DNA of 64,000 nt from Amoebophrya sp. A120 (Eukaryota; Protista; Dinoflagellata): positions 3,281,144 to 3,345,143 of the forward strand of contig CAJINV010000012.1 of the NCBI GenBank assembly GCA_905178155.1, written 5' to 3'. Of this stretch, positions 1 to 61,000 are shown piece by piece. The notes beneath the pieces are model-generated. The model was given only the letters and a program-made list of their open reading frames with translations. It was not told the DNA's origin and made no database searches. Position numbers and translations under genes: made by a program. How positions within the stretch are numbered: position 1 is the first letter of the stretch; every line of letters starts with the position of its first letter.

Positions 1-1094
1 GCATCCGCGGGCCGCTGGTGTGCTTTGGCCCGCCCGAGCACGACACATTTTACGTGTTGCACTACAATGGGTTCATTTACGAGGTCAGCATGGTCGCCAG
101 TAGCGGGGATCACGCAGTGGCAGGAGGGTCTTTTGGGGAAGACGGTAAGGGGAGTTTTTTTGGGAGAAGTAGAACTCAAGGATGTTCTTTGTATTGTCAT
201 GTTGAAGCAGCTCTTGCACAAGAAACGAGGAGTTTTGATGTCTTGCATGAAAACAGCAGGACAAGCAGCATGAAGATCCTCTACAATAATTTTTGCAAAA
301 AGAGTACTACTATCGTGCTGTCCGCTACACCAGGTGCGACTCCCAGCAGCGGTGCACTTTTGCGTGGTTCGTTCCTGACAAACCAACTGCAGGCCAGCCC
401 CAAGCTGTCAGCGACAAACACAGACACCACAAGTAGCCTCGCGGGCGGCGGCGGCACCAGTAGTTCTAGTGCAGCAGCTGCCTCCGGGCAAATATGCATT
501 GCAAAGATGACGTTTGGGTCTGGGTAAATGACATGCTGAGCAGCAGCCTTGCATGACAAATACAAGGCAATCTTTAGTGCTGCATGATTGGAACATCAGA
601 TTGTTTTCTGATCTTCGTGCGAGTTCATCTGCCATCTTTAGTATGACAGTCTGATCTTCACCGCATGAGAAAAGCATTCGCCGATAATCCTCTCCATGCA
701 ATACAGATCTGGGCGTCGCGCAACTCCCGCATCACAAGTCCAGACCCAGGCAGCTGCATATTTGCAATGCATAGAACATGATCGGACAGCACCTGAAGGA
801 GGTGATTCCGGGCGTCCACGTCCAGGCAACCACCCATTTAGTTCAGGCGCACGCGTTATGCATGGCAAAAGTATCGTACTGGTATAAATCGCATGACAAA
901 TTAGCTCAGCATGAGAAATGGAATTTGTCATGCTGATTTACCTCGGGATGGAGATTTGTAATGCATGACTGCGATTTTTACTACGAGTGCGATGCTTTTG
1001 CACAGGATACGCATGGTTCGCGTCGAGGCCTGATTTCCAGATGCACAAACAAATCGTCGGAGCGGACGATGAGGCGGATTGGCAGCTGATATAA
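1..1094 (+). CDS. 3' part of a multi-exon gene, possibly WD40/PROPPIN-like (5' end outside window)
   Basis: Removing elements 493-773 and 857-1009 (+5 nt each) gives the open frame ...SGQMIGQHLKEVIPGVHVQATTHLVQAHAWFASRPDFQMHKQIVGADDEADWQLI*. The start VCFGPPEHDTFYVLHYNGFIYE only loosely resembles a last propeller blade. Confidence 0.5.
493..773. mobile_element. Introner element, family A (diverged)
   Basis: TATGCATTGCAAA..TGGGTCTGG / CCAGACCCAG..TTTGCAATGCATA; flanks GCAAA/GAACA. Confidence 0.8.
857..1009. mobile_element. Introner element, family G (short)
   Basis: TATGCATGGCAAAAGTATCGTACT / AGTGCGATGCTTTTGCACAGGATA; TSD CGCGT/CGCAT. Confidence 0.85.
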
Positions 1095-1593
1095 TGTTGA
1101 GCATCTATCACGAACACGATGTGGAGATATTTTTTACAAGAAAGCGAAGGGAATTCAATGGGTCAAACAGCTCAAGAACAGGTCGTAGAACTAGAAGAAC
1201 AGAAACAGATTAAGAATAAGTTACAGTTTTGGATGATTTAGAAAGATAGATGGATACGAAGTAATAATAATTGCCACCACGTGTTACATCGAGAATCTCA
1301 ATCTGCAGTGGAATTTGAAGGTGCTTATCCAAAGCCATTTTGTGCGATTCGTGTAGGTTAGGTTCTTTGGAAAATGAAAATAAGCAAGCGAGACACTATG
1401 GTTGGCCGTGGCTCCACCTTCCGCCGAGTTAGAAAAAAACACGTCACTTAAGAAGATGCAAAGACCATCAGGCTTCTTTACCCACCGGGTCCGGGACCGG
1501 CCGCGAAAGATATTCGTTACTATCCCCGATGAAAAGGGAGACGAGCCAAAAATAAACGTCCATTTTGAAAAGAAGAGTGGCGCGCGACGGCGA

Positions 1594-2401: not shown

Positions 2402-2653
2402 TATGCATTGCAAATATGTCTGGGTCTGGAAGAATGCAAACTTGTGATGCGCATTTCCCAACACATAAAAATCTCTCATGCATAGGCAGCAAGAGTTGCC
2501 CACTTTCTGTCACCAAAGTGGGGCATTTGTCATGCAGATTCGGCATTGCGGAAGCTTCTCGAAACCTGTGATGCTAGAGCTTCCATGCTAGACCTTCTGT
2601 GTCATGCAAAAGCAGCGTGACTCTTGCAGACCCAGACATTTTTGCATTTGATA
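2402..2653. mobile_element. Introner element, family A
   Basis: TATGCATTGCAAATATGTCTGGGTCTG / CAGACCCAGACATTTTTGCATTTGATA; TSD AGAGT/ACAGT; interior matches copies at 24842 and 58922. Confidence 0.9.
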
Positions 2654-4365: not shown

Positions 4366-4627
4366 TATCAACTGTAAAAATGTCTGGGTCTGGAAGAATC
4401 CAACTTGTCATGCTGATTTTAGATTCTAAAAAAATCTGTATTGCATGAGCAGCAAAGAGAGCCCAAGTTTTGCTACACGGAAAGAGCATTTGTCATGCGG
4501 TATAGGCATCAGGAAGCCCTCACAAAATCTGTGATGCTAGGGCATGCATCACAGACATCAGGAGTCATGCAAAATGTGCATGACAAACCTGGCACTCTTC
4601 CAGACCCAGACATTTTTACATTTGATA
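4366..4627. mobile_element. Introner element, family A
   Basis: TIR TATCAACTGTAAAAATGTCTGGGTCTGGAAGA; perfect TSD AGACG; 262 bp. Confidence 0.95.
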
Positions 4628-4691: not shown

Positions 4692-4862
4692 TATCCCACA
4701 GAAAAAGACCGACAGGTCATATTTGTAATGCAAAAATAAATACACAGGAAAATCTGTCATGGGCGAGGCCATAGCATCCTGTTTAGGGCATGCAATACAG
4801 ATTTTTTTGTCTATTTATTTTTGCATTACAAATATGACCTGTCGGTCTTTTTCTGGGGGATA
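4692..4862. mobile_element. Introner element, family B (long TIR)
   Basis: ~50-bp TIR TATCCCACAGAAAAAGACCGACAGGTCATATTTGTAATGCAAAAATAAATA; perfect TSD CGGAT; 171 bp. Confidence 0.95.
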
Positions 4863-4907: not shown

Positions 4908-7900
4908 ATGTCTTATTCACGGTATAAATGTACTTGAAAAGATAGATTACCGCATATTGCGTGCAAAGAAAGGTCCTGCAGGTAGTACGATGACAAGCCG
5001 CAAACTATGCAAGAGTCCATAATCCTAACAAACAAAACAGGTCACCTCGTCGTCGCGGCCACCTCCTCGCAACTCACCGTTCTTGACGCCAAGGATCGGT
5101 CCGTAGTCACCCAGGACGCATTCGAGGACTTCCAGTTTCGGTCTCTCACCCCCTACCGAAGCGAGCAGTTTCTGACCGCCAGCGACCGGGGTCTGCATCT
5201 CTGGGAGGCGGTGGGGGAAGTAAAAAATCATGAGCACGGAAACTTTGGAAACAACCTCGACTACCTGACGGACATCTTCGAAACCACCGCAAATGGGGGC
5301 TTCGATTTGGCCTGCGTGTCGAGCAACCAAGAGAAAACCATTGCGACGAGCACGAGGAGGAACGGGAAAGTGTGGTTATCGGGTAGTAGTTCATCCGCAA
5401 CATCATCGTCGAGAGATCCCACTGGCGCCACTTTCGCTGGCGGAGGCTTTTTCCTCGAGCCTTATGGCGTAGCTGCGGGGCCTTCACAAGGTACTACTGC
5501 TTCGACCCCGGTAGTCGACACGCTGACTTTCGCGCAGAAAAAGGACTTGCTTGCGGTGGCGTGGCAGAATTGTTCCGGAAAAATGCTTGGACAGTCTTCA
5601 CAGCCTTCCTCAGCTTCTACCTCATCCACCCGCACAGCGGTTTTTGACGTCACAACGGGGAAATGTGTCTACGAAACGAGTAACGATCATCTCCAAACCA
5701 GTACAATAAACCCAAAAAGCAACTACATCAACCGGAACAACAACAGCAACAACAAAAGCACGTTTCTCTCTTTCTCCCCCCACCACTCAGATCTGCTCAT
5801 TTCCGCCCATGCGAACGGGGTGATACAGTTCACTGACATTAAGTATCGCAAGAAAAAAGTGTTACAGTTACACATTGTGTTGCAGGCCACGCAAGACAGA
5901 CAAGTTCTGTCATGCCGGATATGCCTAGGAGCCTCGTTTACTATGTATTTTCTCGTAGGATTTCTGCATTACAAGTTTTCTCTCTCATGCTGAGAAATTT
6001 GTGTTGCTTAATTCACTACAAGTGTGGATCTGTAACACTTTTTTCGTGGGATATCAAGGTCGGCAGTTCTAGTACGCAGTCCTCTTCTAATAGTAAATCT
6101 GAAATCATAAAGTCCTTGAACACGAAGCAGAAACTCACCTCGCTCTCTTACTGCAACGACGGCATCCGCTTGGCGCTCGGGACGGAAGACAAGGGATTAC
6201 TGCTTTTCGACTTGAGGAAAGCCAGCGATCCCGTGTTCCCGAAGGTTCTTATGGAGGAGCCGGTGCGGTTTGTAAAGTGGAGCGGGAGTTTTAATTTCGG
6301 TGCAGGGAAAAGTCGTAACGAGGCAGCGAGCACGTCGCAGCGGGCTCCCGCTCCTGCTCGCGATGAACAGGATGCGAGCATTGCGGGGAATTCGCCGAAT
6401 CACCGGGAACGGAATTACTATGCGCGCGGAGGACAGCATCAGCAGCCGCGACAGCAAGATTCAGATTCTACTGCAGCGGTGGTCCCCAACTCCAACAATA
6501 GAACTACCAATGCATCCCGGCCTGTGATAGCCGAAGTGGCCGCCACAGCGGCTCGGCCGCAGCAGCAGTTTTACCAGCACCACCCCCCACCGCGGACGAA
6601 CAACTTTATTCGGGACCAGGTGCTCAGTGAGGCTTTTGCCAGTCGTGGAGAGCAACACAAACAGTATCAGCAGCAGCACGCCAATGAGACAGCTGACTTT
6701 CCCGAAATCGATGAAACCTTTCCCGAGTATGAGCCGCCGAACCGACAAGATTTTCTCGACGACGACAACCCACTGCAGCAAAATTTCGACGAAGACAGCA
6801 ATTTCGCGGGCGGGCGGTCAACGAATCATTTGTTCCACAGCAACTTCCACTCCGTGAAGAGCGATGCTAGCAGCCGCCCGGGGCCGCCACCGTTTATCGG
6901 GGGAGCAGGTGCAGTAGGCTCGGGGAGCAGTAGCAGCAGTAGTACTGGCGCAGCCGCAGGACATCATTTGAACGTAAGCGCCCCGATATCCTGGACCAGC
7001 GCGAGTCGGAAGAACAGCGGGGGAGCTGGAAATATTGCGGTGGGCAGCAGTAGTGGTGGCGGTGGCACTCAACAGAGTACTTCTGGCGCTGGCGCGACAG
7101 GAATAAATGCGAGCTCTTCAACTGTCAACCAGGGCGCGGGGAGCAATACTGTCAATAAGGAAAGAACTTTTTCTGGAGGAGGTCGAGGTAGGGAACACTT
7201 GAATGATAACCACAACCGCGTCCTCTCCTGTTCCAGAGCATCTCCAAATAGCAGCAAAGTGAACATTCCACCAGGAAACGCGAATGCCGCAAGTAGTTCA
7301 TCCGGCAGTTCATCCGGCGGTGGAGCGATGAGCATTTCGCAGGAACGCCTGGAGCAGGCGTTTGCAGCCCAGCTGCAGAAGATATGGCGTTCTCAAATGT
7401 TACATTCTGAACTGTTACATGAATTTGTAATGCAAGAATGGCAAAAGTGCAAGGGGCAAGATTTCGCTTTTTGCATCACAGGTTTGACACAGATTTAGAT
7501 GCTGTGTAGCCCTTCGGAAATTTGTCATGCGAAGCACCTTGATGATGTAGATACTGATGAGAGTTTTGCATGACAAATCATGTAACAGTTGAGAATGTAA
7601 CATTTGAGAACTCCATAGAAGATGGAGGAGAGATTTGAGGAGAGGCTGACAAGACAGCAGCGTCATATCAAATGTAAAAAAGTCTGGGTCTGGAAGATTC
7701 TGACACTTGTCATGCACGTTTTGCATGAGCCATGATGTCTGTGATGCATACCCTAGCAATACAGATTTCTTGAGGGCTTCTTGATGCCTATTCCGCATGA
7801 GAAATGCCTTCTCAGTGTAGCAAAAATTGCATTCCCTTTGGTACTCATGCAATACAGATTTTTTTGGAATCCAAATGCAGCATCACAAGTTGCATTCTTC

Positions 7901-8017
7901 CAGACCCAGACATTTTTACATTTGATACGTCATTTTGACGAGCAACTGCAGCGGCTGGGGTTTGATATAGCGCGGCAATTTCACGAACTCGAGTGTGGGG
8001 TGTTGTCCAGGACATAG
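4908..8017 (+). CDS. NEDD1/GCP-WD-like WD40 protein (both ends uncertain)
   Basis: WD40 segments (LSFSPHHSDLLISAHANGVIQFTDIK; LTSLSYCNDGIRLALGTEDKGLLLFDLR), low-complexity linker, then a coiled coil ending GFDIARQFHEL after removing elements at 5844, 7383 and 7666. Confidence 0.65.
5844..6053. mobile_element. Introner element, family C
   Basis: TATCGCAAGAAAAAAGTGTTACAG / CTGTAACACTTTTTTCGTGGGATA; TSD TTAAG/TCAAG; removal joins FTDIK-VGSS. Confidence 0.9.
7383..7617. mobile_element. Introner element, family D
   Basis: ~40-bp TIR TATGGCGTTCTCAAATGTTACATTCTGAACTGTTACATGA; TSD GAAGA. Confidence 0.95.
7666..7927. mobile_element. Introner element, family A
   Basis: Family A TIR; TSD CGTCA; interior reversed relative to 4366 copy. 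Confidence 0.95.
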
Positions 8018-8185
8018 TCAGAAGTAAAAAGATGTCTGGAAGAAGAATGAATTTGAAGTGGACTTCATCGATACTAACACGTATCAGCGAAGCAGTGCCA
8101 ACAAGTCAATGAATGACTGCCCAGAGAGTGCCGTTCTTTCCTGGCTACCGCAAGGAAAAAAAGCCGCGTTTTGTGGTATCCGGGT

Positions 8186-8310
8186 AGACCAGGGCCCCTG
8201 CTCAGACCAGGGCCCCTGGGACCAGGGCCCCCAGGACCAGGGCCCCTAGGACCAGGGCCCCTAGGACCAGGGCCCCTAGGACCAGGGCCCCTACGGATTG
8301 GGGCCCCTGC
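8186..8310 (+). repeat. Left subterminal tandem array, ~16-bp unit
   Basis: GGACCAGGGCCCCTAG-like unit repeated about 6-7 times. Confidence 0.9.
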
Positions 8311-8899
8311 GGACTGAACGGCATCCCGGAATCTGGTACACGGCGCGGCGCGGCCGGAAGCGGAGATGTCTACCAGCGGATCTTCCAGTCGAAATAATCT
8401 GGGCCACCAAGTAAGTATGCATGTCATGGGACTCCTAGTATCTGGCCAGGAGGTAGAAGAAGGTAGGCCACAAGTAATATGGGACGCAGTCGGCTGACTA
8501 CCCAGAGCATTTCTCTCACTTTCTAGATTCCTCGACGCGCGTCGGCGTCACAAGTTCTCAGTTGTGCAGACCCAGATCTATTTACAATGCAACGGGCATC
8601 GTTTTTTTTTGTAGTCAGCCACGTACTTGAGCTTCTCCGTCTGTCTTTTTTGGGTGGTGTCGTTGAGGAATCTTGTGCATTTTTTTCCCTTGATGATGCT
8701 TGTCTGAACGATTATTCTGTAAATCTCCGCCGCAGCTTCGATGTAGTATGGCAATTTCATTCTCGGTATTTTTTCATAGCGGCGCCATCGGTGCGTATGT
8801 GGGGTACGGAAATGCGCATTTTTTCGCGGCACCGACGACGGGCGGCGGGTTGGTGCGCAGTTGTACTGTCGCGCGATAGATATCAAGGGGAACTGCTTC

Positions 8900-10793: not shown

Positions 10794-13700
10794 ATGGTCG
10801 ACTCGCAGGATCGGGTCTTGCTCAAGGTCTCGGTCGAGCTGGCCGAGGGGGTGACAGAGCTGCTCTACGTCAAGCAAGCTGATTTAAACGCAAAGGACGG
10901 CATACGAAAGTTGGCGGAGGAGTATCCTTTGTCGCTTTTATTTGCATAGCATGATTCTATGAGTATGATCGCGCTGTTGAATAATAATCAACCACGGTGC
11001 TCACTGCTCCGTCTTCGAGGAGAAGATAAACGCGAGATACAAAATCAAAAAAGGTTTTGTCGCGCCCAGAATCTGGACCTCACCCGCGTCCGTGCACCGT
11101 TGGAGGCACACATACGCGAAAATGAAGCTCCAGGCTGGGCCTGCAAATTACAAGTGGGGCAGCCGCTCACAGTTAGGGGCCCGAGGCCGGTGCAGGAACT
11201 CACTGGCAGCCAGGCTCGAGGCGGTGCAGCGCTTTGGCTGCTTTGGGAGTTCTGCGCCCTTCTCAGGTGAGCCGGCTCCGCGGCTGCGCCGGGCGTGGCA
11301 TGCGCTTCGTCGCCGGGTGAAGTTTATATATATGCGGCGGCGCTGCTTTTGTTCTCTCTTGGCAGGCGCTAGGCCGGGGCCCTGCGTGATGGCATAGCGA
11401 ATGTTTATCGCGGTCCGTGCCTGCGCCGACTATGAGAGAGACGCCGCAGCTGCCGCGGCCGCGCAGCAAGGTGCCTCGCCGTCTTCACGTTGAAGCGTGG
11501 GCGCGAAAGTCGCGCCGCGTTCTTTCTCTTCACCAAGCTGCGTCGTGCCATCGGTGCAAATTCAGAACCGACGGCATGGCCTCCGTTGCTTGTTGCTAGT
11601 ACGTATCGGAGCCGTTTCTCCGCCGGCGCCCGTGTATTTGCTGCCCTTGGCGGCACGCAAAAGCCGGCCGTCATCGGATTTAAGTGAGCCGGGCCCCCCG
11701 GCCCGTCGATGCCGCGACGCCTTCGCGGCAGGCGGGCAAGGTCGGGGCACAGAGCTGGGCTCGCACCAGGCGGGGGATGACAGTCCAAACAAACCTGCTC
11801 TACGTTATGGCCCCGACCCTCTTCAAGCCAGCGTCGCGCTCCGGCCGAGGCAAGAGCGCTCGACGACCAAAACGCGTGGGCGCTCGTGGCCAGACGGGAA
11901 GAGTGGTTTCATGCGTCCAGCAACCATGGAAACTAAGCACCTGGGGCCCCCAAAGCGCCCGGCCATTGTCGGCCTTTCCCATCTTCAGCACTGCTCGCAT
12001 AATGTGCGCAGTGAACACTGCCACACTCTGCGAAAAGCTGCGCCATTTTTTCGGTCCGTTAAAAAAAAACCCCGTTCCGCGAGGGTGTTCTGCGATTTTT
12101 CTTTGGTAGGTGATCACTGTCGGCGATCACCGTTTTTCCTTCTATACTTTGTTTCTTTGCAGAGCATGAAGATGCTATGATCGCACTGTGGAATGAAAAG
12201 AAACCACGTGGCTCCGTCTTCGAGGAGAAAATAAACGCGGGATACGAAAATCAAAATAGGTTCTGCCGCGCCCAGAATCTGGACCTCACCCGCGTCCGTG
12301 CACCGTTGGAGGCGCACATACGCGAAAATGTCGCCGCTGCACAGTTGGAAGAAAAACAGCAGCGGGCATCGTATGAGGAGAAAAACTTGCAATATAATTT
12401 TAGAAGATTATCGGACTGTCGTTGCCAGCAAAAGTACTAAGAATTTTTTTTGGGTTTCTGACCCAAATCTTTTGTAGCCTTCACGCAAAATTGAATGTTT
12501 TCTGTATGAGCATGACTTTTCTGTAGCGAGAAGTTGATCTTAGCATGCGGATTGGCGACAAATCTGTGCAGAAAAGATCCTTCTTTTTGTTAGAGTTTTC
12601 TTCTTAAATTCATAATGCGTCGAGCTCCGGCGGAGCGGGGAACAGAAGGTCGGTTGAAAATAGCATGCAGTACCAGCCTCTGGCGGGCGGCCTGGAGCGA
12701 ATACTGGACCGGATCTCGGTCGGAGAGACGAAAAGGGTATAGGTATTTTTTGCCGGGGGATTATACTAGTTGCGGGTTACCGCAGCAGTACAACTAGGGA
12801 ATCATTCAAGATTCCTTTTTTATCTTGCATTCAAAACCGAAACCGTTTTTCAGGCAACCTCCTCCACTAATCCATCGTTCCTGGACCAGCCACCTAAATC
12901 AGCGCGCAGAAGCACCACAGGAAATTACAATACGAACCAGTACGTCGATTCCGACCCCGATCCGGGCGGCGGGGGCGACAGTACTAACAATGTTGCAACC
13001 TCCGCTTCTATGCAAGAAAAAAACTGTGTAAGCGTAAGTTTGTGATGCAGAAAATGCAAAGCCGCTACATTTGTCATGCAGGAAGTGGGTCATAGCCACA
13101 CTTCACGCGTGTTTTTACGTACTAGCTGCGCATAATGTAATGCGAAACGAATTTGTGATGCTGCTCATCCTACACAGCTACACCTACACAAAATTTTTGT
13201 TGGATAGCTTCCTCGCGGCAAAAGATGCAGCAGCAGATCCTGCAAAAGCTGAAGTCCGGGCGGTCCCGGTCCCACGTCTTCCGGAGACTGCACCAAGACG
13301 GCGCGGAGCGGGCGCTGCGGATTGACATTCAACGGAAAAACGAGCAACGCGCGCGGGAAGACCGGGCGAAGAGTCCGCGGGAGAGAAAAAAGAAAATGAA
13401 TGGCGAGTTCGCTGGGGGAACAGGAGGGGGAGCAACAACGTCTTCTAATCTCTTCCACTCCGTTGTGCGTCAAAGCGATAGAAGTATCCATCCACTCGAA
13501 AAGCTGTACCGCGACGCGCAGGACAAGCGCGCCCGACTGGAGCGGCGGGCACAGCAGAAGGAAGAGCTGCTGAATCTCGAATTGGCCCAGTACCCCTTCA
13601 AGCCACAGATTCACGCCTCGCAGAAAACGGTTGCCGGGTTGGAGAGCGGGGGGAAGGTGTCACTGAAAACGCGGGAAAAGATCGAGCAATTGCGGCAACA

Positions 13701-16514
13701 GAAAATGCTAAAGGAGCTGCAGGATTGCACTTTCAAGCCCGAGATTGACGAGAGAAGCGCGTATTTTTAGGTTTTTTTTTCGAACTACTGCTTGTGAAGA
13801 ATCTTGATGATTAGTACTCATGCGAAGACTGAATTGTTACTGTGCCCCTTAATTGTCAATCATGCAACTCACCCAGCAGCACCACTCTGCAGGTTGATGA
13901 TGAAGAGGCGAATAGAGCGGCTGAAAATTACGGGGTCACTTATCCACCGCAAATCAAAATTATCGTACTTCTGATGAACCACGTAGACATTGTTTGCAGA
14001 CGCAGATCTGCATGACAAAGAACCTCTCTGTGATGCAGTGACGCTTGTCAATATCATCCACGAAGGCGATATAATTTTTTTTGCTTTCCATACTCGTCCA
14101 TGACCATCTGTACGAGGACGCCAAGCGACGGGAAGAGCGCATGTACGAATACGCAAACCTCGTTTCGCCTGAGGTCACCTTCAAACCCGATATCGGGACG
14201 GTATAACAGTGGATACAAGTCGTTTAGCATGCACGATGATCTAAGTACATTGGTGCGTTGCTTTTGCTGTATCGTATGCGGTGTTGAATTCTGCATCACA
14301 AAAAATATCTCATGCCTAGGGACAATGATTATTCTTGATAAAGTCCACAAAGAAGAACACGATATAAAAACCCAGCAGCTCATATATTAATTCTCCCACC
14401 ACAGCACAAGGATCGGCCCCCGCCAGACGCGAATGTCGCGGACTTTTTCGATCGCATGATGAAGCAGAAGTCTAGCGGACAGCTACAAACGCGTGAATAC
14501 GCGCACCAGAAGCTCGGAATCAAGATCAAACAGGACCCCATGGAAAATTGTTCGTTCCAGCCCCAGGTCGGCCGGCCACCCCACTTCCCGCGGAACGAGG
14601 ACAAAAAACCGATTGGCCACTTCCTGTACGAAGTCGGGCAGTACGTCCGGAACTTAAAAGAGGAAATCGTCGAAGCGAAGCTGCAGGAGGAAGAAAGAAA
14701 ACGCGTGCCCGTGATGAGCGAGGTGTCGAAGCTAGTGTATGAAGAGAAGAAAAAGAAAAAGTTCAAGGTATAAAAATAGCACGCATGCTTTGATGAGAAA
14801 CTGTTGTCATACATTCACACGTCGAAGAATTTCAGTTTGTCTTGCGCCGAGCAGCACTTCCTAAACAACGAAATCTAAAAGTAAAACGAACTATCAGGAA
14901 ATCTTCGAGAAACTCTCCGACGGGAATTCGGAAATTAGTCAGGAAGTCTTCCACCTGGATATCGTAAGGAAATATCCCCCCTCCCCATATTGAAAACACA
15001 TTCGTCTGAAAATTTGTGATGCAGATTTGAGGTCACAAATCCTGTCTGTCTTGCAAGAAGGAAAAGCCAGAGAGTCCGCCGCATTATGCCGGCGGTTTGT
15101 GATGCTGTTGGGCTTACAGAGCCGACATCTGTCATGCTAGTCCCCTACGTCAAAACCTCTCGACCCAGGCTTGGCATATGCCTGCAGTCCCCTCCAGCAA
15201 GACAGACTTGATTTGTCTACGCAAATCCAGCATCAGAAACTTCGTTTCGATATGGGGAGGGGGGGTTTTTCCTTTTGATACTGGACCAGATACCCCTCGA
15301 GTTTCACGAGTTCCTTCGGCCCATACTGGCGTACTTGGAGGAGACGAATGGAAAGTTTGATTTCCATGGCTTCAGCATCACGATGGATTATGTTTTGGAA
15401 AAGACCGGCGTGCCCTGCTCGCATTTGTTTTCCGCCGTGGAAAAAAGAGAAAAGGAGGAACTGCTCGGAAACACAGCGGCTTACGGGTCGGTGATGTCGC
15501 AAAAGTATTGGGAGGAATTTGAAAGATATTATCTTGTCATGCAGGAGAGCCAGCATGGAAATGGATGTTTTCTGTTGTAGTGATGCTATGCAACTTCAGA
15601 AGTATAAAATCTAAATCATGAACTATCAGAGCGACTCCTCGTGGCCCCTACGACCCGACGGCTGCGCACACCTACACGCCCAGAATAAATCCCAACTCCA
15701 CGAAGATTTTGGAAGAGAAAGGCCGCTTACAGTCCAACGTGCCGGTGCACGAAAGGTTGTGGAGCACGCATGAGAAATACCAGCAGCGGACGGAGTTGCG
15801 AAGACAGCAGTTGTATGCATTGCAAATATGTCTGGGTCTGGAAGAGTTGGAACTTGTCATGCGGATTCTGGAGTAGGTATGAAGTTTATGTTGTATGAGC
15901 ACCAAAAGCTTTCCATTTCTTGCTACGCAAATAGGGAGTTTCTCATGCGGGATAGGCATCAGGAGGCCAGCGCAAAACCTGTAATGCTTTTCGTTCGTCA
16001 GAGAGCATTTGTGTGATCGAGAGGATGCATGGCAAACATCTGCACTCATCCAGACCCAGACATATCTGCACTTGATAAGTTGGCGGAACAGGAAATGTTG
16101 GAATGTACCTTCACGCCGAATCGGTTGAATCAGGGTACAAACTACTTTTGAGCTGTTGTCCTTGAGTTTTGAATGACAGATCTTTTTCGCATTTGGTTTT
16201 CGCATGAGAAATTCCGTGCAACAAGTTCAGTTGCGCATTTCCGTTTTGCATTACAAAGCGACGAAAGCTGCATCCCAGGTGCCAAGCAGACCCCCCGCGG
16301 CGGCCCAGTAGCGGTAGCCGGGGCAGCTAAAAATACAACTATCCCGGCAAGTACAACGAAATTCGCTCCTGCCTCCCGTACAGCCGCGCCGAAGGGTGCC
16401 ACGGCACGAAGATTGTCGGATAACGCGGAAGTCGACGCCGCACTGGAGGGTGCGGAAACGGCCGTGAAAAACGCAACAGCAGCGGTGGAGCGGGTCAAGA
16501 AGACGTCGAGCTGA
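10794..16514 (+). CDS. Multi-exon coiled-coil protein with CTF(K/Q/T)P repeats and an EF-hand-like segment
   Basis: Exons give MVDSQDRVLLKVSVELAEG.., YPFKPQI, CTFKPEI, VTFKPDI, CSFQPQV, EIFEKLSDGNSEISQEVFHLDQIP.., CTFTPNR; joined by GT-AG introns and introners. Confidence 0.7.
10923..12330 (+). repeat. ~200-bp intron+exon direct duplication flanking a ~1-kb GC-rich insert
   Basis: Copies at about 10923-11124 and 12143-12330; exon parts 11054-11124 and 12260-12330 match at 68 of 71 nt. Confidence 0.85.
12393..12614. mobile_element. Degenerate introner element
   Basis: TATAATTTTAGAAGA / TCTTCTTAAATTCATA imperfect TIR; removal +5 nt keeps frame (NLQ-SSSGG). Confidence 0.55.
13941..14092. mobile_element. 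Degenerate introner element
   Basis: TATCCACCGCAAATCAAAATTATCG / CGATATAATTTTTTTTGCTTTCCATA; removal +5 nt gives GSL-HDHLYEDAKRR. Confidence 0.6.
14960..15280. mobile_element. Introner element, family E
   Basis: TATCGTAAGGAAATATCCCCCCTCCCCATAT / ATATGGGGAGGGGGGGTTTTTCCTTTTGATA; TSD CTGGA. Confidence 0.92.
15814..16077. mobile_element. Introner element, family A
   Basis: Family A TIR; TSD AGTTG. Confidence 0.93.
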
Positions 16515-45856: not shown

Positions 45857-45872
45857 TACTAGCTGCATAGAA

Positions 45873-46792
45873 TATCCCACAGAAAAAGACCGACAGGTCA
45901 TATTTGTAATGCAAAAATAAATACACAGGAAAATCTGTCATGGGCGAGGCCATAACATCCTGTTTAGGGCATGTGAACCAGCACACGAAGGGAACCCTGG
46001 GACGCGAAGAGCACCTAGAAGAGACGAAAGCACACAGACCAGAGAAAAAGGCAGAGCGAACGGAGAAAAAAAGGACGGGACACTGCAGAGACGTATGTGC
46101 TCCGCGTGACATACAACTCAAATGTATGCGCGCCTGGCGTCTAGCGCGCGCGCGCGCGTTCGGGGGAGGATTTACTGATACTAGGCAGAACGCAACCGCC
46201 ACGCGGAAAGGATAGAGGACCCGAGACGTCGTGCGCGGGGCAACTTAGCCCGGAAAGGATTTTTGCAAGATTCTTGAAAAGACCGAGCGTTTTGGCACGT
46301 CTGCCATTGCTTGCAATGAGACGCTTCGCGCCTGGTGACTATTTTATTGCTTGCAGCGCGTCGCAATGCAGATTACCAAGCGACCGCTGAGTGTGCATAT
46401 TCGTCGCGAGGCCCAGCACGGCCGCGGCTAGACGACACGATCTGGCGGGACTACTAGCGGGCAACAATATAAAACGACGGCGCCGAGGCATTGTAGGTTC
46501 CGTCCCGCACGGGGGCCCCAGGAAGTCCCGGGGGCCCCTTTGCGTCCGGTAGAACCAGTTTTGCAAGGGTCCGGTGGGAAAACAGCGGACCAGTAGGCGG
46601 GCAACATAAGTATGTGCTGCATACGTCTAGGCAGGGTTTCTTCTAGGACAATTAGGGGCAGGCCCCTTCGTGTCCTGACATACAAATATAATCTGGGGGT
46701 CTTAGGAATACTGGTTCACATGCAATACAGATTTTTTTGTCTATTTATTTTTGCATTACAAATATGACCTGTCGGTCTTTTTCTGGGGGATA
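45873..46792. mobile_element. Introner element, family B, carrying a nested insertion
   Basis: Same ends as 4692-4862; TSD TAGAA; 920 bp versus 171 bp. Confidence 0.93.
45974..46718. mobile_element. 745-bp non-autonomous TIR element nested in the family B introner
   Basis: TGAACCAG / CTGGTTCA ends flanked by CATG on both sides; the 4692 copy shows the empty site GGGCATGCAATAC. Confidence 0.88.
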
Positions 46793-50008: not shown

Positions 50009-52450
50009 ATGGACTCTCACAACCCAACCTCTTTCGCCGACCACGGTTTGACTTTCCAAAATGTCACGTACTCGGTCTCCCCGGAAAAAACCATCTTGCG
50101 TGACTGCTTCGGGCGGTTTCGCCCGGGCGAGGTCTGCGCCATCATGGGAGAATCGGGGTCGGGGAAATCCACGCTGTTGAACCTTTTGTCAGCCCGGATG
50201 AAGTGGAGCGGACGTTTGTCGAAGAAGGCGGATATTCACGCTGCGCCGCAGTTGTGTGCACGAGGAAGTATTGACTCGACGCCAAAGCCGTTTCCGCACG
50301 GAGATATTGCAAGTGCAGACGCGAAGCTTGCCGATGTTGAGCGGGACGATCAAGTCGAAGCAGGAGGTGATGACACGCATCTTTTGTTACCTGCTGCTGC
50401 TCAACGAGAGGCAGGACAACAGCTACAGCCTTTCGACCCGATTTCTCCCCGGGACCACAAGTTCACGAAGCTTTTCGGTGATTTGCAGGATGAGGTTGCG
50501 TATGTCTTTCAGGATGACCAACTTCTCGCCACCGAAACCGTTTTCGAAACCGTGATGTTCTCTGCCCAACTGTATCAAATGCAAAAATGTTTGGGTCCGG
50601 AAGGTTACCAGGTTTGTCATGCATATTTTACATGATTCGGGATGTCTGTAATGCATGATCTGGCATCACATATTTTTAGAGGCCTTCCTGATGCGTATCC
50701 CGCATGACAAATGCCCTCCCCGCGTAGCACAAAGTGGGCTCCTATTGCTGGTCATGCAATACAGATTTTTTTAGAGTCCAAAGTTAGCATCACAAGTTGC
50801 ATTCTTCCAGACCCAGACACTTTTGCAGTTGATAAACTGCGCCGCCCGGATTTGAGCAAAGAGGAACGGCTGGAAAAGGTGAACGAATTATTGGAAGTGC
50901 TCGGCCTGACCGCCTGCAAAGACGTGAAGATCGGCAGCGCGCTCTCCAAGGGCATCAGCGGCGGGCAGCGGAAGCGCACTTCCGTTGCGGTGGAGCTGGT
51001 GATGGAGCCGAAAATTCTGTTTTTGGACGAACCGACGTCTGGGCTGGACAATCCTTCCGCGGAACGGTTGACCGCGTTCTTGCAGCACTACGCAAAGGAG
51101 AAAAACGCGACCGTGGTGTGTACCATCCACCAACCGTCGGAGTACGTTTTGCAGCAGTTCGACCGGGTTTTGGTGTTGCAGAAGGGAAAGACGGCGATTT
51201 TTGGCACGCCGAAACAGAAAGCCTGCTTCTCCTTCGCCGAGGATCAAACGGGACAAATGGAGACGGAAACTTCCATCACGCAAATCATGGAAGCTGCGGG
51301 CCGGAAAATGCCAATGGAGTACGGGTCTATGCTCGGGCAGTGGCTCTCGAAAGTGATGGCGGAAATGACAGAGGACGAGATGGGAGTGATGCAACAGAAA
51401 TCCAAGGAAAGCTTCCAGCGGTTGTGTACCGCGGAAGTGATGGCTCGTGCATCTACTACTGAAGTAGATCCGAACGACACGTCGGCGAAAACAAAATCCA
51501 AATCGATCAAGAGCAAAGACCTCGGTCGCGCCAACCTGTTTGTCCAGTTGGGCTCTTTGATCGCCCGCGATTTCCGTAAATTGTACCGAGATTACAGTAC
51601 TTTGGGTCTCTCCGTCGGGTCCGCGGTGTTTATGCCGATTTTGACGTTGATGTTCTGGTGGGCGTTCCGCACCTCGCAATTGGAGGAAGACCAGGACTTC
51701 CAGACTTTTTCCGGTTACACGGACTTTGTCGCGGGCAGGACGTCGCTGCTCATCCTTGTGAATTTGTCCATCGGGTTCCTGAACGCCATGCCGGTCGTTG
51801 CCACCTTTCCGACGGAGCGCCCGATTTTCCTGCGCGAGTACAGTTCCAAGAGCTACAACGTTTTCAGCTACTTTTTTTCCAAACTGGTAATTGAGATTAT
51901 CCCTTTGGTGGTGTCGGTGTTGATTGTTCTGTCTTTGACAAAACTTTCCCTGGGTTTGTACGCGAACTTCGGATTAGTCTTCGTTGCCTCCAGTACCTTA
52001 GCCGTGACCACCAGCAGTCTGGCCTTACTGGTCAGTTCCTGTACCAGCACGGTGACCGAGGCGATTCAACTCTTGGCTTTGTTGGTCACCTTGCAGTTCA
52101 TGTCCTCCGGCGCGTTCTTTGCGGTGAAGTACATTCCGGTCGGGGTTTACGGCATGCGGTACTTGTTTGGCGTCAAATTCGCCTCGAACATCAGTCTGCG
52201 GAGCGAGTTTAAGCAACTGAGTGAAGAGAAGTTTTTGGATTTCGGCCCGCAGAACGCGATGATCGGGCTGCCGGGAAATTCCACCGCTTTGCTCGAACAA
52301 ATCCATGACGAGCAGGACATTATGATGCCGGGGGCCAACCCGCAAGCCACGGATGCAATCGACTTTGCGTATCTACTGATGCCGTTTTTTCTCTACCGCT
52401 CGCTGGCGGTGCTGATTTTGCACCTGCGCAGTCGCTACGCGGTCAAGTAA
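50009..52450 (+). CDS. ABC transporter, ABCG/White-family half transporter
   Basis: Walker A GESGSGKST, signature ISGGQRKR, Walker B ILFLDEPTSGLD, CTIHQPS, ERPIFLRE and C-terminal TM helices; one introner. Confidence 0.93.
50573..50834. mobile_element. Introner element, family A
   Basis: Family A TIR; TSD AACTG; joins FSAQL-RRPD. Confidence 0.95.
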
Positions 52451-54140: not shown

Positions 54141-56519
54141 ATGCCACCCCGCGCCGGCAGTCAGCAGCAGCCGAGCAGGGCCTCAGCTTCGACGGCTATG
54201 AAGAAGACGACCGCGACAGCCAGCCCCGGAAAAAAGAAGCAGCAAGTTGTACTAGCTGCGGGGAAGAAACAATCCGCAGCGAAGTCTTCTTCGAATATTA
54301 AGGCGCGTAGTTTCTTGAAAAAACCGGCTTTTGCGATGAAAACTGGCACTGGAGGGGCAACGAAGAAGGCGAATGATAAGAAGAATAAAACCAGTGGGAA
54401 AAGCAAATCATCTACCGCTGCGAAGAAGAAGAAGACCAAGAAATCCCCGGTCGCAAATAGCGGTGGTCGACAAAAAAGGTTGTCAGCCTACTTCGGATAT
54501 GAAATGCAAAAATGTCTGGGTCTGGAAGAATGCAGCTTGTGATGCTGCATTTGGACTCCAAAAAAATCTGTATTGCATGAGCAGCAAAGGGAGCGCATTT
54601 TTTGCTACGCGGAGAGGGCGTTTGTCATGTCGTATAGGCATCAAGAAGCTTTCAAAAAATCTGTAATGCTAGGGCATGCATCACAGACATCAGGGCTCAT
54701 GCAACACGTGCATGACAAGTGTCAGAATCTTCCAGACCCAGACATTTTTGCAGTTGATATCGGAGCTGCAGGTTCGAACGACACACAAGATGAACGACGA
54801 AAGAAGCAGCAGTCATCAAGTGGAAAAATGATGAAAAAGACGACCACAATGGGAGGTGATGACAAACCCGATATCGAGATGAAGGACGTCGCAAATAACG
54901 GCCCGTCCCCGTCTTCCTCCAGATCCTCCATGTCCTCCTCCTCCGGCTCGGTTGCAGCTTCCTCGACCAGCGATTCCATTTTTGACCAGTCAAGAAATCC
55001 AGCGAAAACAAATATGCCAGATCTGATGTTCCCAGCGACTACGGCGGCGGCCAACGGGACAACTGGAGGCGCAGGACCATCCTCCTCCGGCAGCGCGAGC
55101 ACCAGCAGCAAACTTTTGTCGCTGAACAATCTGAACAGTAGTTCCTCGTCCACAGCAGGTTTCGGTTTATTACCCCCAGCCTTCTCCCCCTCTACCTCAT
55201 CAAGTGCTGCTAAAAAGAATAACGCCTTTCTCGCCAACCAGGCTTCCTCCATCGCGATGGAACTGCAGGAACAGAACCAGAAGGAAAACAACAATCAAAC
55301 CACCAAATCTACTTCCCTATCTCCCGCAAATAAGAAGACAATTCTGAAAGCCCGCACGGCCTACACCTGGTTTTGTAAACTGAACAAGGACTTCTTCGCG
55401 GAAAAGTACAAGCAGAACAAAGGGATAGACCCCCCGGTTGACCTTCTGGCGAAGGCACTGGAGGCGAAGTGGGACAAGATGATGAACAAGGAGGCGAAGA
55501 AGGTGTATGAGAATCATGAGAAGTTGGACGAGATAAGATACAAGTTTGAAAAACGAGACTTCAACGAAAGGGACGTGTATAACCTTTTGAAAATCGCCGC
55601 GGAGGACTGCGGAAACATCGAGTTGACCCGGGAATTCCTCAACTCCGTCCGGTCGCTAGAAAATATCAATGCGACCTCGGAGGACTGCAGACAAAGCATC
55701 GCAATTCGAGTTGGGAAGCAGGTGGCGAAGCAGGGTGGCAGTTTTCCAAGTCCATCGAGCAGCAATTGGCGAAAAATTCTCGCGCAATGGAATATCGATT
55801 TGGATGATCCGGCGAGTGGCGAGTTTTTACATCAGAATAACAACAAAAACTCCACATCATCTTCCAGCAAAACGGTGGAATTTGAAGTGTGGAAGCCGCA
55901 GGGCGAGCAGCCAAGGTCTACGCAGGAGTACCGGATGACAATCGCGGAGAAGCTACTGGCCATTTTCAACGACGATAGGAAAATCAGCCGCGACGTCGAG
56001 CAGGCGCTGTTTCAGCAGCATTTGGGGGTATAGATTGTTTTTTTTTTTTTTGTATATCATGTAAATGATTTTTTTCGTTCTGATCATGGGAGTGTCATCG
56101 ATTTTTCATGCTCGTCCAATGCCTGTGCATCGGAAGAGAAATGGAATTTCCGATGCAATCATATCCGCATGTATGATCACACAAGAACGCAACTTCCTCT
56201 TTATCAGGACATGAAGGAATACGCGGCTTCTGGTCGTTCCTTACTCTACAACCTCCGGCACAACGAGGACTTGCGCAGTCGGGTGTTGAAGAAGGAGTTG
56301 AAACCGACGCAATTGGTGAAACTGAGTCCACGCGATCTCGCAACGGACGAGCAGAAAAAGCAGCGCGAGGAGTTGGAGGCAAAGTCGCTGAAGAATTCCG
56401 TCACCGCCTCCCTGCCAAAGACGAAACAGGAACTGTACCAGCAACAGCGGGAGGAAAGAGGCGGAGTCGCTAGGATGGATTTGTCGTCCCAAAAGGAAAC
56501 CCAGTCGCAGGGGTATTGA
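54141..56519 (+). CDS. HMG-box plus TFIIS central-domain protein
   Basis: KARTAYTWFCK..LEAKWDKM..KKVYE..DEIRY (HMG-like); after a GT-AG intron, EYAASGRSLLYNLRHNEDLRSRVLKKELKPTQLVKLSPRDLATDE (TFIIS domain II-like). Confidence 0.75.
54498..54759. mobile_element. Introner element, family A
   Basis: Family A TIR; TSD TCGGA. Confidence 0.95.
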
Positions 56520-58025: not shown

Positions 58026-61000
58026 ATGGGTGCAGGTTCTTCTTTCGCGCCGCAGACTTCGTACTGCCATGCCTGCGGTTTCCGGCAAACAACCATCGGC
58101 GGCACGTTGAACGAGTGCCAGCATTGTGGAGCGGTGGACACCTTGGAAACCAGGCCGATGTTCACGGAGATTTTGGAGCAAGGGGCAGATGGCGCGGTGA
58201 ATAGAGTAGATGGCGGGGGAACACAAGATGGACCACAAACACGGACGGGCAATGCCGCCGGGAGCGACACCACAACCACTGGTGGAACCAGCCGAAGTCC
58301 AGTCAGAACCAGAAGGAGGAGCAGCACGACAAGGAGCGAGGGAGGAGACAGGGTAAATTACGTTTCCCATTTTCATCTGCTTTCATTTTTGATGTGTGAC
58401 ACAAAATGACACGGGCGCTGAAGATGCCTCCTGTGCCTCGGATAGTACTCTTCTCGTTCTGGATGCAAAAACCACCCAAAAAACGACCAACAGCCTACTC
58501 CCACCGCTGGTGGCCCAAGAAACACAACTACGTCCGACAATTCCGCCACTCTCGGCAGCCAGGACCATTCCGCTTCGGAACAGGAGTCTTCCGGCGAGGA
58601 AGCGCATGTGGATCTTTTGTGGAAAAACCTGCACCGCATTCCGGGCGTGACCGCGACTGGAGATTGCAGCATTTGCTGTACCGAGCTCGCTGTGGATGAT
58701 GATGAAGAAATGAAGAAGAAAGCGTTGGAGCAAGCCGGAGGGGTAGTACAACTGGATGAATCAGGAGACGAAAAAAATAAAAACCTCTTTAAAATCGACG
58801 GCCCCTTCCGCGGTTTCCACTCGCCCTACCCCTTCCGTTGCGACTGGTTTTTCTACCGCGAGAACGCGTTCATGCACCCGAGTCGGGCGGCGGAGGAGAA
58901 TTATTGCATACCCGTGTCGGATATCAACTGTAAAAATGTGTGGGTCTGGACGGATGTAACCTGTGTTGCGCATTTCAGAACACACAAAAATCTCCCATGC
59001 ATAGGTAGCAAAAGCTGCTCACTTTCTGTCACCAAAGTGGGGGATTTGTCATGCGGGTTCGGCATCGCGGAAGCTTCTCGAAACCTGTGATGCTAGAGCT
59101 TCCATGCCAGACCTTCTGCGTCATGCAGAAACAGCATCACTCTTCCAGACCCAGACATTTTTGCATTTGATATCGGAGTATCGGGACGGGAGATTTGTCA
59201 ACTACGACGAAAAGACCGCAATCACCCCCTGCGCTTTGAAGTCCGCGGAAATCGCCGCGAAGCCCTACACGGTGATAAAACTCCCCTGCGGCCACCAATT
59301 CCATGAGGAGTGCTACTCGTCTTGGTTTTTCTCGGCGTCCAATTACAAGAAAACCTGCCCCACCTGCAGGTCCGCACTGCGGCCGAACGCGCGGCCGCCA
59401 GATATGGCGTTCTCAAATGTTACATTCTCAGCTGTTACATGATTTGTCATGCAAAAACACTATCACTCTTAACACGATCAAGCCTTCTCCGCATAACAAC
59501 TTCTCGACGCGCTAGGTAGCATTATACTCTGCTCCAAACCTGTAATGCAAAAGGCGCAACGTTTTCCCTTTCACTTTTGCCATTCTTGCATACAAATTTC
59601 ATGTAACAGTTGAAAATGTAACGTTTGAGAACGCCATACCAGAGGAACGCCAAGCGGCGCGGAACGCGGCAAACGGGATAAGTACCGGGACGGACAACGA
59701 GCCCCACGCGTTTCTCCGGGCGGCGCGGGAGTTTTTCGAAACTTTCAACCAAGCGACCCGAGCGGCGCACAGTTCGCTGCTGCGTGTGTTCGAGGCGCAG
59801 CGGGAACGGCATGCGCGGGAGCTGGAGGAGCGGAACAGGGGGAACAGTGAGGAATCGAGTGGGATTGACGAGGCGAATTTGGTGGTCAGTTCGGAGAGAA
59901 CCAGGATGAACAGAAGTGGTGGTGATGAAGGTGAAACCGACAACAATTTGAATTCTACGAGGAGGGGACACCAGCCGTACACAGTCCTGCAGCCACCTCG
60001 AAACAACAGCAGCTCGGCGAACCAACCGACGCGAGGAGAAACCCAGGCTGCCAGGCAAAATAGCGCGATCAGCCAGCACATTCAGATCATGCCGTTTCTG
60101 GAGCAGCAGCCCCAAGAAGGAGGTGCTAATTCGGACACGACCGTTTATCCTTTCGGGGATGGAGAAGAGCAAGATGGTAGCGTCAGCAACTCCAGCAGCC
60201 GAGCGACGCCAAATAACAGTGTCGGAGGTTCTTCTTTCTTCGGTGCTGCTACATCGGGACCAAGACAAGCCAACTCTAGTACCTCGAACAGCAACAGCAA
60301 CACAAGTACGACATCTACAAATAATCGGCGCACGCGCACATCGCACCAAATCCGGTTAACACCGCTACGATCCGAGGACCTGCCGGAGGGAAGAGGGACG
60401 GCGTTCTACTTCGAGCTAATCGAGCAGGAGGAGGAGGACGTGGATGAGGATACGGCGACTGCGGCGGAGCAAGACGGTATAATTACTCAACCACGGGTCG
60501 AAAATCCGTGGATTCGCGGTGGCGGCGGTGTGGTTCCTAGTACAACTTCTGCGCGAAATTCATCTAGAGCGACGAGTACGAGGAATAGTGTAGATAGGGG
60601 AAGTGAAGAGAGCAATGCCGCTACAACAGCTTCCACCGTAGCTAGCGCAGGTCTGACCGCGACGACAATAGGGGCGCCAGAGGTTGATGTTGAAGACGGA
60701 CGACGGTCAGCAACAGCATCGTCTTCAAGTCCGACGAACAAGAAGGCACCCCGAGCTGGTGCTGAAGCTGCGGGTGCAACGTCTACTCCGAAAGGACGGG
60801 AGAAAGAGCGCGTCGGTGGAGAGTTGATGCAGGAGAAAAGTTCAAAGAAAAGGAAAACTACACCTACTCGCTACAGTGCCGACCATGCGGCAGCAGCAAA
60901 GAAGGGAAGAGATATACGAAAACGCACTATCGGTATAAACAGCGACTCGGACGACGAGAATGACGCTGCGCTACAGGCCTTCCTCGGAGTCGGGGGTAAC

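What the first reader, a model, noticed from the sequence alone, without database searches (positions are those of the whole stretch)
493..59638. Window-wide system of TIR/5-bp-TSD elements that behave as non-GT-AG introns
Seen: about 47 elements from about 10 families with unrelated interiors share TAT...ATA ends, roughly 15-50 bp TIRs and a 5-bp TSD of arbitrary sequence (AGACG, CCACC, CCTAC, TCCAA, CAAAA...). In the coding cases I translated, deleting element+5 nt restores the frame, and for TSDs such as CCACC or CCTAC no GT-AG, GC-AG or AT-AC boundary is available. Known: invasive non-canonical introner elements with inverted and direct repeats are described in Amoebophrya, so the class is probably not new; to my knowledge the splicing machinery and mobilising enzyme are unresolved. 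Inference: these are MITE-like transposons removed precisely from RNA by a structure-guided mechanism. TAT ends with a 5-bp TSD fit no superfamily I can name, and no autonomous partner is in the window.
Basis: partly seen in the sequence, partly recalled or inferred. Interest (0 to 1): 0.9.

Follow-up and report, generated by a model that had tools for sequence, protein, structure and literature searches.

The report
Transposon introns with fixed cut register
In the parasite Amoebophrya, dozens of small transposon-like inserts split genes and are missing exactly from what are likely assembled transcripts although they lack normal GT-AG ends; this oddity is already published, but here the cut likely falls one base before and four bases after each insert, which would point to an altered spliceosome.

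Summary
I find 45 TAT...ATA elements with terminal inverted repeats and a 5-bp target duplication (18% of the window). A window exon is 100% identical to a protein named Amoebophrya sp. A120, so these are the introner elements of Farhat et al. 2021, who report TAT-starting repeats and 5-bp direct repeats. All 19 elements in IFT172 are removed as element+5 nt: 11 joints seen in transcript-like contigs (10 in two samples), 8 by exact length sums. DNA contigs keep them. None of the 45 offers GT-AG. What I add: decayed duplications fix the cut. One register fits all 11 joints: intron = N-TAT...ATA-NNNN. This puts U-A-U at +2 to +4, as in the gene's ordinary GTAT donors (6 of 8), with G+1 and AG dropped. 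All 18 top splice motifs in Farhat's Table S4 also have T at +2, though the text calls the borders unknown. Interiors are not unrelated: they share a TTTGTCATGC motif. Likely mechanism (inferred): an altered spliceosome guided by the terminal stem. No transposase found; a Ginger-like candidate with 5-bp TSD and TA ends is in print. The scan noted a similar intron in another genome.

The parts
20884..32116 (+). Host gene IFT172 (1805 aa): 19 element introns and 8 GT-AG introns
493..773 (.). Element, TSD GCAAA/GAACA (decayed); annotated protein has Gln, so cut after TSD position 4 or 5
   Evidence: annotation, not RNA seen here
857..1009 (.). Element, 150-bp family, TSD CGCGT/CGCAT
   Evidence: P0121 reads across it
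2402..2653 (.). Element, main 260-bp family, TSD AGAGT/ACAGT
   Evidence: removal not tested
4366..4627 (.). Element, main family, TSD AGACG
   Evidence: removal not tested
4692..4862 (.). Element, 171 bp, TSD CGGAT; short form of 45873
   Evidence: removal not tested
5844..6053 (.). Element, TSD TTAAG/TCAAG, in a WD40-like gene
   Evidence: frame restored
7383..7617 (.). Element, 236-bp family, TSD GAAGA
7666..7927 (.). Element, main family, TSD CGTCA
13009..13206 (.). Element, TSD GCTTC
14960..15280 (.). Element, TSD CTGGA
15814..16077 (.). Element, main family, TSD AGTTG
22146..22311 (.). Decayed element, TSD CGCTG/TTCCC; unique junction 22144>22316 (GT..CC) fixes the register
   Evidence: (X3 only)
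22848..23138 (.). Element, TSD GACAG/GACAA; joint 22842>23139, cut at or before TSD position 4
24132..24400 (.). Element, TSD TTCGA/TCCGA; joint 24128>24403
24478..24715 (.). Element, TSD CCACC; joint 24472>24716
24842..25098 (.). Element, TSD TTCCA; joint 24832>25095
25394..25547 (.). Decayed element, TSD CTGGT/CCCCT; joint 25392>25552, cut at or after TSD position 4
25846..26097 (.). Element, TSD GATGT; joint 25839>26097
26149..26459 (.). Element, TSD TCCAA; joint 26143>26460
26609..26758 (.). Element, TSD CGGGA; joint 26603>26759
26828..27088 (.). Element, TSD CCTAC; joint 26821>27088
27371..27530 (.). Element, TSD CGCAC/CGCAG; joint 27363>27529, cut at or before TSD position 4
27842..28147 (.). 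Element, TSD GAGAT
   Evidence: P0001 map; contig length sums
28190..28349 (.). Element, TSD CGACA
28510..28766 (.). Element, TSD GAAAT/GAAAC; opposite orientation to its 89% relative at 31285
28827..29078 (.). Element, TSD AGGGG, right end AGA
29194..29456 (.). Element, TSD GCGCA/GCGCG
29684..29954 (.). Element, TSD GAAAC, left end TAC
   Evidence: (next piece starts at 29954)
30618..30878 (.). Element, TSD TTGTA
31285..31539 (.). Element, TSD GAGGG/GACGG; next piece starts at 31543, cut at or after TSD position 3
34434..34669 (.). Element, TSD AAGCG
   Evidence: piece ends at 34428; length sum with one 115-nt GT-AG intron
34750..35030 (.). Element, TSD TGCGA/TGCGG
   Evidence: length sum
35287..35505 (.). 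Element, TSD GTTTG
   Evidence: next piece starts at 35506
37333..37611 (.). Element, TSD CAAAA
   Evidence: piece ends at 37326; frame restored
37646..37798 (.). Element, TSD CGTGC
42941..43107 (.). Element, TSD ATGAT/GTGAT
43337..43602 (.). Element, TSD AAGAA/ACGAA
44694..44955 (.). Element, TSD TCGCT/GCGCT
45158..45406 (.). Element, TSD AACCA
45546..45824 (.). Element, TSD TGGTG; 94% identical to 37333
45873..46792 (.). 920-bp long form of 4692 with a 745-nt unique interior; no transposase domain
50573..50834 (.). Element, TSD AACTG, inside the ABC_tran domain of an ABC-2 transporter
54498..54759 (.). Element, TSD TCGGA
58922..59172 (.). Element, TSD TCGGA, in a RING-finger gene
59403..59638 (.). 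Element, TSD CCAGA

Best explanation
These are the published Amoebophrya A120 introner elements: short TAT...ATA inserts with 5-bp duplications that are missing exactly (element+5 nt) from contigs that are likely mRNA, likely cut at one fixed register (N-TAT...ATA-NNNN) and likely removed by an altered spliceosome. Shown: the anatomy; exact removal; one register compatible with all 11 joints; copies of one family removed in either orientation. Inferred: a non-autonomous DNA transposon inserts with a 5-nt stagger, probably moved by an integrase-type (Ginger-like) transposase. In pre-mRNA the TIRs pair and bring the ends together. The 5' cut falls 1 nt before the stem, so the element's own TAT supplies U+2, A+3 and U+4 of a GUAU-type donor and G+1 is not needed. 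The 3' cut falls 4 nt after the stem with no AG. One TSD copy is rebuilt from four upstream bases and one downstream base, so any insertion in either orientation leaves the coding sequence unchanged.
For: Identity: exon 23139-24128 is 100% identical to P0001, named Amoebophrya sp. A120; Farhat describes TAT + 7 nt + at least 3 A, matching the end profile. Removal: 13 of 13 joints listed for 22060-27600 match the model (11 elements, 2 GT-AG introns), at depth 75.6 in X3 and 15.7 in X4; 22144>22316 is in X3 only. Length sums 1843, 491 and 1424 nt match exactly for the other 8 IFT172 elements. DNA run X1 has contigs of depth 41-47 running through elements, e.g. 22999-24516. Register: allowed cuts are {4} at 22146, at most 4 at 22848 and 27371, at least 4 at 25394; the intersection over 11 joints is {4}. 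The register-4 residue at these four sites equals the A25 ortholog's, and L, N and V are kept in 80, 86 and 95 of 98 homologs at three of them. P0121 has Gln at element 493, which needs a cut at 4 or 5. Donor likeness: 6 of 8 GT-AG introns in IFT172 begin GTAT; all 18 predominant motifs in Farhat Table S4 have T at +2, in both strains. snRNP27 is undetected in both strains, and its loss goes with +4U donors in yeasts (PMC10581693 abstract). The shared interior motif has 61 hits in element introns, 6 in 5 of 8 GT-AG introns and 0 in 5,434 exon nt.
Against: The register rests on one unique junction (one run) and three one-sided limits in one gene, plus one annotation-based site. The unique junction begins with GT and lies in a decayed element, so it may be special. 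With six possible registers, TAT lands at +2 by chance 1 time in 6. I cannot see how Farhat placed ambiguous junctions for Table S4. The TIR stem would bury +2 to +6, the bases U6 must read. U1 snRNA was not detected in A25 or A120. No lariat, branch point or snRNA evidence was obtained. X3 and X4 are RNA by the tool's guess, and contigs drop rare variants. Raw RNA runs X9-X11 laid 20, 1 and 0 reads and gave no test. The interior motif pattern was first chosen by eye. No transposase was found.
Confidence: 0.6

Rival explanations
1. Same elements and register, but removal is by a non-spliceosomal endonuclease and ligase that reads the terminal stem and cuts 1 nt 5' and 4 nt 3' of it, as suspected for euglenid nonconventional introns.
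For: Neither G+1 nor AG is kept: at register 4 the donors are AT 19, GT 11, TT 9, CT 6 and there are 15 different 3' dinucleotides. TIRs pair in 41 of 44 short elements. U1 is undetected. Euglenid introns use fixed spacers around a paired motif (PMC12501133 abstract) and leave as circles (review).
Against: The three most decayed elements (in-register TIR pairing 0.03-0.15; 10.6-21.5 expected end-to-end pairs) still fit the register and keep TAT. The register matches the GTAT donors. Ordinary introns share the interior motif. Farhat found 83 of 89 spliceosomal proteins.
Confidence: 0.27
2. The cut floats within the duplication; register 4 only dominates at the few sites that can show it.
For: 7 of 11 joints have perfect duplications and allow any register. 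Farhat calls the sites variable relative to the hairpin. Of the six position-5 mismatches, four give the same amino acid with either letter (read), which a floating cut would favour.
Against: Four independent limits from both sides meet at one value. No other letter reached 30% at these junctions. Other registers give Pro, Ser or Leu at conserved residues.
Confidence: 0.1
3. The elements are excised from DNA at some life stage (IES-like), and the joined contigs come from DNA.
For: X3 and X4 are RNA only by guess; the DNA runs listed are one sample (S1), and only X1 was laid.
Against: The same contigs also lack the GT-AG introns and span 20380-32661 like a transcript. X1 contigs run through elements at single-copy depth, and none of its 15 top joints is a clean excision (2,158 further joints not shown).
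Confidence: 0.03

Closest known systems
Introner elements (non-canonical introns) of Amoebophrya sp. A120 (Farhat et al. 2021, PMC7789003)
   Same: Same organism by protein identity; TAT-starting inverted repeats followed by an A run; 5-bp direct repeats (Fig. S19 legend); about 240 nt; about 17% of the genome against 18% of this window; no transposase inside.
   Different: Nothing in kind. The text reports direct repeats of 3-5 nt, variable splice sites and unknown borders; here TSD is 5 and one register fits. Their figures, which I could not see, may show part of this.
A120 introner family 38, filed as Ginger-like TIR DNA element (PMC12130899, dataset row)
   Same: 5-bp TSD and TA/TA termini; intron-forming; same genome.
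   Different: 808 bp with ORFs resembling LTR-element integrase region. I could not see its sequence, so shared TIRs with the window's families are untested.
Ginger2/Tdd DNA transposons (Bao et al. 2010, PMC2836005)
   Same: [quoted passage not shown]
   Different: Ginger ends are TGTNR, these are TAT[CG]. Most Ginger2 make 4-bp TSDs with an RTATAY preference; here no target preference and no transposase.
Euglenid nonconventional introns (PMC12501133, PMC11282704)
   Same: Non-GT-AG; paired ends; fixed spacers between paired motif and cut; TSD-like repeats; suspected MITE origin.
   Different: Euglena signature N3-CDG...CH'G-N5-6|R; here N1-TAT...ATA-N4. Unrelated lineage, so convergent at most.
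Fritillaria borealis non-canonical introns (bioRxiv 2025.08.15.670264; review PMC11282704)
   Same: MITE-derived introns handled by a spliceosome with changed specificity; the model for my best explanation.
   Different: There the ends are mostly AG-AC/AG-AT; here both end dinucleotides vary except U+2.

Membership tests
Amoebophrya A120 introner elements | Occurs in A120 genes | tested here: met
   100% identity to P0001 named A120
Amoebophrya A120 introner elements | Inverted repeat starts with TAT, then about 7 nt, then an A run | tested here: met
   T/A/T in 89/88/89 of 90 ends; A at positions 11-14 in 71-85 of 90
Amoebophrya A120 introner elements | Direct repeat of 3-5 nt at the exon/intron boundary | tested here: met
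   5 nt; perfect in 29 of 45
Amoebophrya A120 introner elements | Removed from transcripts with non-GT-AG ends | tested here: met
   11 joints; none can be read GT-AG; runs are RNA by the tool's guess
Amoebophrya A120 introner elements | Repeated families | tested here: met
   5 multi-copy families hold 34 of 45; 41 of 45 have full-length relatives in metagenome loci
MITE (non-autonomous TIR DNA transposon) | Short, TIRs, fixed-length TSD, no coding capacity | tested here: met
MITE (non-autonomous TIR DNA transposon) | Cognate autonomous element with the same ends | tested here: inconclusive
   none among 45 window and 394 metagenome elements; no whole genome held
MITE (non-autonomous TIR DNA transposon) | Empty orthologous site | tested here: inconclusive
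   no orthologous locus among 145 loci; A25 protein is collinear but its DNA was not seen
Ginger superfamily | TGTNR termini | tested here: not met
   TAT[CG]; one end of 90 reads TGT
Ginger superfamily | 4-5 bp TSD | tested here: met
   5 bp
Ginger superfamily | Gypsy-integrase-like transposase | tested here: inconclusive
   no such Pfam hit in 60 of 79 interior ORFs of 8 long elements; non-autonomous copies need not carry it
U2-type spliceosomal intron | GU...AG ends | tested here: not met
   0 of 45
U2-type spliceosomal intron | Donor core U+2, R+3 and +4 like the host's introns | tested here: met
   45, 45 and 44 of 45 at register 4, by construction from TAT; 6 of 8 host introns GTAT
U2-type spliceosomal intron | Lariat with branch point; U2/U6 dependence | not testable with these tools
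   needs experiments
U12-type (AT-AC) intron | AT-AC ends and minor snRNAs | tested here: not met
   2 of 45 read AT-AC at register 4; minor snRNAs reported absent
Euglenid nonconventional intron | N3-CDG...CH'G-N5-6|R signature | tested here: not met
   N1-TAT...ATA-N4 against the abstract

The most novel reading that the evidence does not exclude
The A120 spliceosome has dropped both G+1 and the 3' AG. It reads only a U-A-U donor core supplied by the transposon's own end and measures the 3' cut four bases from an RNA stem, perhaps helped by a TTTGTCATGC intron mark shared with ordinary introns. This makes any insertion, at any site and in either orientation, a perfect intron at once. Tens of thousands of 'variable' splice sites would reduce to one rule.
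Probability: 0.4. Interest if true: 0.8.

Novelty: already known. Interest (0 to 1): 0.45.

Why it matters
The system is published, but how these introns are cut out is open, and the describing paper says the borders are unknown. A single rule (N-TAT...ATA-NNNN) would let the roughly 30,000 A120 elements be re-annotated, and it turns the mechanism into direct tests: mutate U+2, the 1-nt and 4-nt spacers, or the stem; look for lariats. It also explains why the invasion is tolerated: insertion is silent at any site and in both orientations.

Tried and rejected
No whole genome is held, so no genome-wide search for long copies. The main TIR pattern found 0 matches in viral contigs. In metagenome contigs it found 149+ stretches (the rows shown share one record prefix); 145 loci gave 394 elements, 15 of them at least 450 bp. 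Those long ones are pairings across separate elements or short elements with unique inserts. Pfam on 60 of 79 interior ORFs of 8 long elements gave three weak unrelated hits below cut-off. The masked window has no orthologous locus there, so no empty-site test. No listed holder is on record as RNA. Raw RNA runs X9, X10 and X11 did not cover the exons: no test. Rfam: 0 matches. GT-AG introns show no real similarity to elements (best E 0.007 over about 20 nt, at the shared motif), so 'ordinary introns are old elements' is not supported. No sign of selection for G at +1: among six position-5 mismatches, the intron copy has G in two and the exon copy in three. The frame test is modest outside IFT172: at least 40 open codons on both sides in 32 of 45 for +5, against 19-20 for +0, +4 and +6. 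Paper search for Ginger with '5-bp target site' gave 0. Own-genome notes: none.
Full report
Observation. A scan for TIRs flanked by k-bp direct repeats gave TAT-starting hits only at k=5 (14 TAT and 1 TAC of 15 rows). A dedicated scan gave 43 rows, 41 distinct after dropping two cross-pairings, against 0-2 rows in five Markov simulations. Adding three decayed elements found by protein mapping and 493-773 gives 45 elements, 150-321 bp plus one of 920 bp, 11,465 bp in all. They form 16 clusters; the largest has 19 members. Closest pairs are 94% and 92% identical. The duplication is 5 bp: the flanking positions match in only 16 and 10 of 45. In 379 short elements from metagenome loci the flanking positions match in 19-32% and the TSD shows no clear base preference; that scan required 4 of 5 matches, so only the drop outside the five positions is informative.

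Host. Exon 23139-24128 is 100% identical to P0001 (Amoebophrya sp. A120 by its source's name) and 78% to the A25 protein; named homologs are IFT172. P0001 maps onto 20884-32113 with 27 gaps and no missing residue: 19 gaps equal element+5 nt and 8 are GT-AG introns. P0001 is an annotation and may share data with the runs below, so it is not independent support. Other host ORFs include an ABC-2 transporter, a DOT1-like, a TFIIS and a RING protein.

Removal. In 22060-27600, contigs of X3 and X4 (two samples, RNA by the tool's guess) show 13 joints, all matching the model: 11 elements and 2 GT-AG introns. 22144>22316 is in X3 only, because the X4 contig starts at 22316. For the 8 remaining IFT172 elements the contig lengths between pieces (1843, 491, 1424 nt) equal the model exactly; these are sums, not seen joints. 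Three elements at 34434-35505 fit by length with one 115-nt GT-AG intron, and a piece ends at the expected place before 37333. So 23 of 45 have contig support and 22 were not tested. The same contigs lack the GT-AG introns, which argues for mRNA. DNA run X1 (possibly the window's own source) keeps elements in unbroken contigs at depth 41-47. Family members in opposite orientations are both removed (28510 and 31285, 89% identical; 26828 and 30618, 83%).

Register. With a perfect duplication the cut cannot be placed. Where the two copies have diverged it can. Call k the number of upstream TSD bases kept. The joints allow k = 4 only (22146), 0-4 (22848), -2 to 4 (27371), 4-5 (25394) and 2-5 (24132). 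The only value common to all 11 is 4. 31285 needs k of at least 3. In another gene the annotated protein P0121 needs k = 4 or 5 at element 493. The k = 4 residues at the four limiting sites match A25; other registers give Pro for a Leu kept in 80 of 98 homologs, Ser for an Asn kept in 86, or Leu for a Val kept in 95; the site at 27371 is variable (Val in 27 of 98). The intron is therefore N-TAT...ATA-NNNN. At this register no element reads GT-AG, two read AT-AC, and the first base is A 19, G 11, T 9, C 6. Limits: one unique junction, one gene, and the unique one starts GT in a decayed element.

Mechanism. The register puts TAT at +2 to +4. Six of the gene's eight GT-AG introns start GTAT. In Farhat's Table S4 all nine predominant A25 motifs are TT-NN and all nine A120 motifs are NT-NN, though the text says no clear signature was seen and borders remain unknown. 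snRNP27 is undetected in both strains; its loss goes with +4U donors in Saccharomycotina (abstract). I infer an altered spliceosome that keeps the U-A-U donor core, uses the TIR stem to bring the ends together, and measures the 3' cut. The TIRs pair in register in 41 of 44 short elements; end-to-end pairing has a median of 22.9 pairs against 0-13.1 for the GT-AG introns. That U6 reads +4 to +6 is recalled knowledge. Against this reading: the stem would hide the donor, U1 is undetected, and no lariat data exist here. A stem-reading endonuclease-ligase remains a serious rival.

Interiors. A motif of the form TTTGTCATGC recurs in both orientations: 151 hits in 11,465 element bp against 21 in 52,535 bp outside, 2.2 per shuffled set. 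The pattern was first picked by eye, but an unbiased 6-mer count puts CATGAC and GCATGA in 15 of 16 cluster representatives. In the metagenome elements it peaks about 30, 40, 125 and 165 nt from the end. It may be a transposase-binding site or an intron mark; its six hits in GT-AG introns and none in exons leave both open.

Mobiliser. None was found in the window or in 145 metagenome loci. Farhat found no transposase in A120. PMC12130899 describes A120 family 38 with TIRs and LTR-integrase-like homology and files it as 'Ginger, 5-bp TSD, TA/TA Termini'. Ginger ends are TGTNR, so these elements fail that membership feature, but an integrase-type enzyme is the best lead.

Literature seen. PMC7789003: passages, sections 10, 11, 12 and 16, supplement passages and part 3 of 5; figures 3 and S19-S25 not visible and may show the register. 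PMC12130899: passages and 41 of 58 A120 rows of one dataset; two supplementary files not searched. PMC9860276, PMC11282704, PMC12005148 and PMC2836005: passages. PMC10581693, PMC12501133 and bioRxiv 2025.08.15.670264: abstracts. Roy et al. 2023: citation only. I did not find a fixed register stated in the text I read, from searches; subscription papers are outside the library. PMC12005148 reports that strains Kv and AT5 use GT-AG, so the system is confined to part of the genus.

Verdict. Real, and already known. The added value is a concrete cut rule and a shared interior motif, both easy to test with existing data. Interest 0.45.

Noticed in passing
window 8175-10087: A different 1.9-kb element: GGTA...TACC ends, a perfect 9-bp duplication GCGTTTTGT (8166-8174, 10088-10096), long inverted arms built of 15-16-nt tandem repeats and four internal 96-nt repeats. 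Mutator/Foldback-like by anatomy (recalled); its ORFs have no Pfam hit.
   Followed up: partly
window 11006-11124 and 12211-12330: About 120-bp direct repeat (87-95%) 1.2 kb apart around a GC-rich interior; LTR-like or a local duplication.
   Followed up: no
window 18160-20260: GC-rich (66%) stretch with no recognised gene; possibly another insertion.
   Followed up: no
window 45873-46792; L055:8001-8972, L035:3862-4492, L062:6779-7926, L034:571-1051, L018:8314-8770: Long forms of short elements that carry unique inserts of 170-870 nt with no Pfam domain; captured DNA or nested unknown repeats.
   Followed up: partly
L001-L145: Metagenome contigs hold the same element families at up to 97% identity, so a close relative in the wild carries them; 394 elements in 776 kb of overlapping loci.
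   Followed up: partly
runs X9, X3, X6 at element ends (e.g. 27088, 29456, 37611): Reads and contigs join element ends to other sequence, so some transcripts from other loci keep elements (unspliced or in untranslated parts).
   Followed up: no
window 1-1070: 3' end of a WD40 gene (P0121, 673 aa) with two elements and a GT-AG intron starting GTAAGG, so ordinary donors are not all GTAT.
   Followed up: partly
window 48406 and 55506: Single unpaired TIR-like ends; possibly remnants.
   Followed up: no
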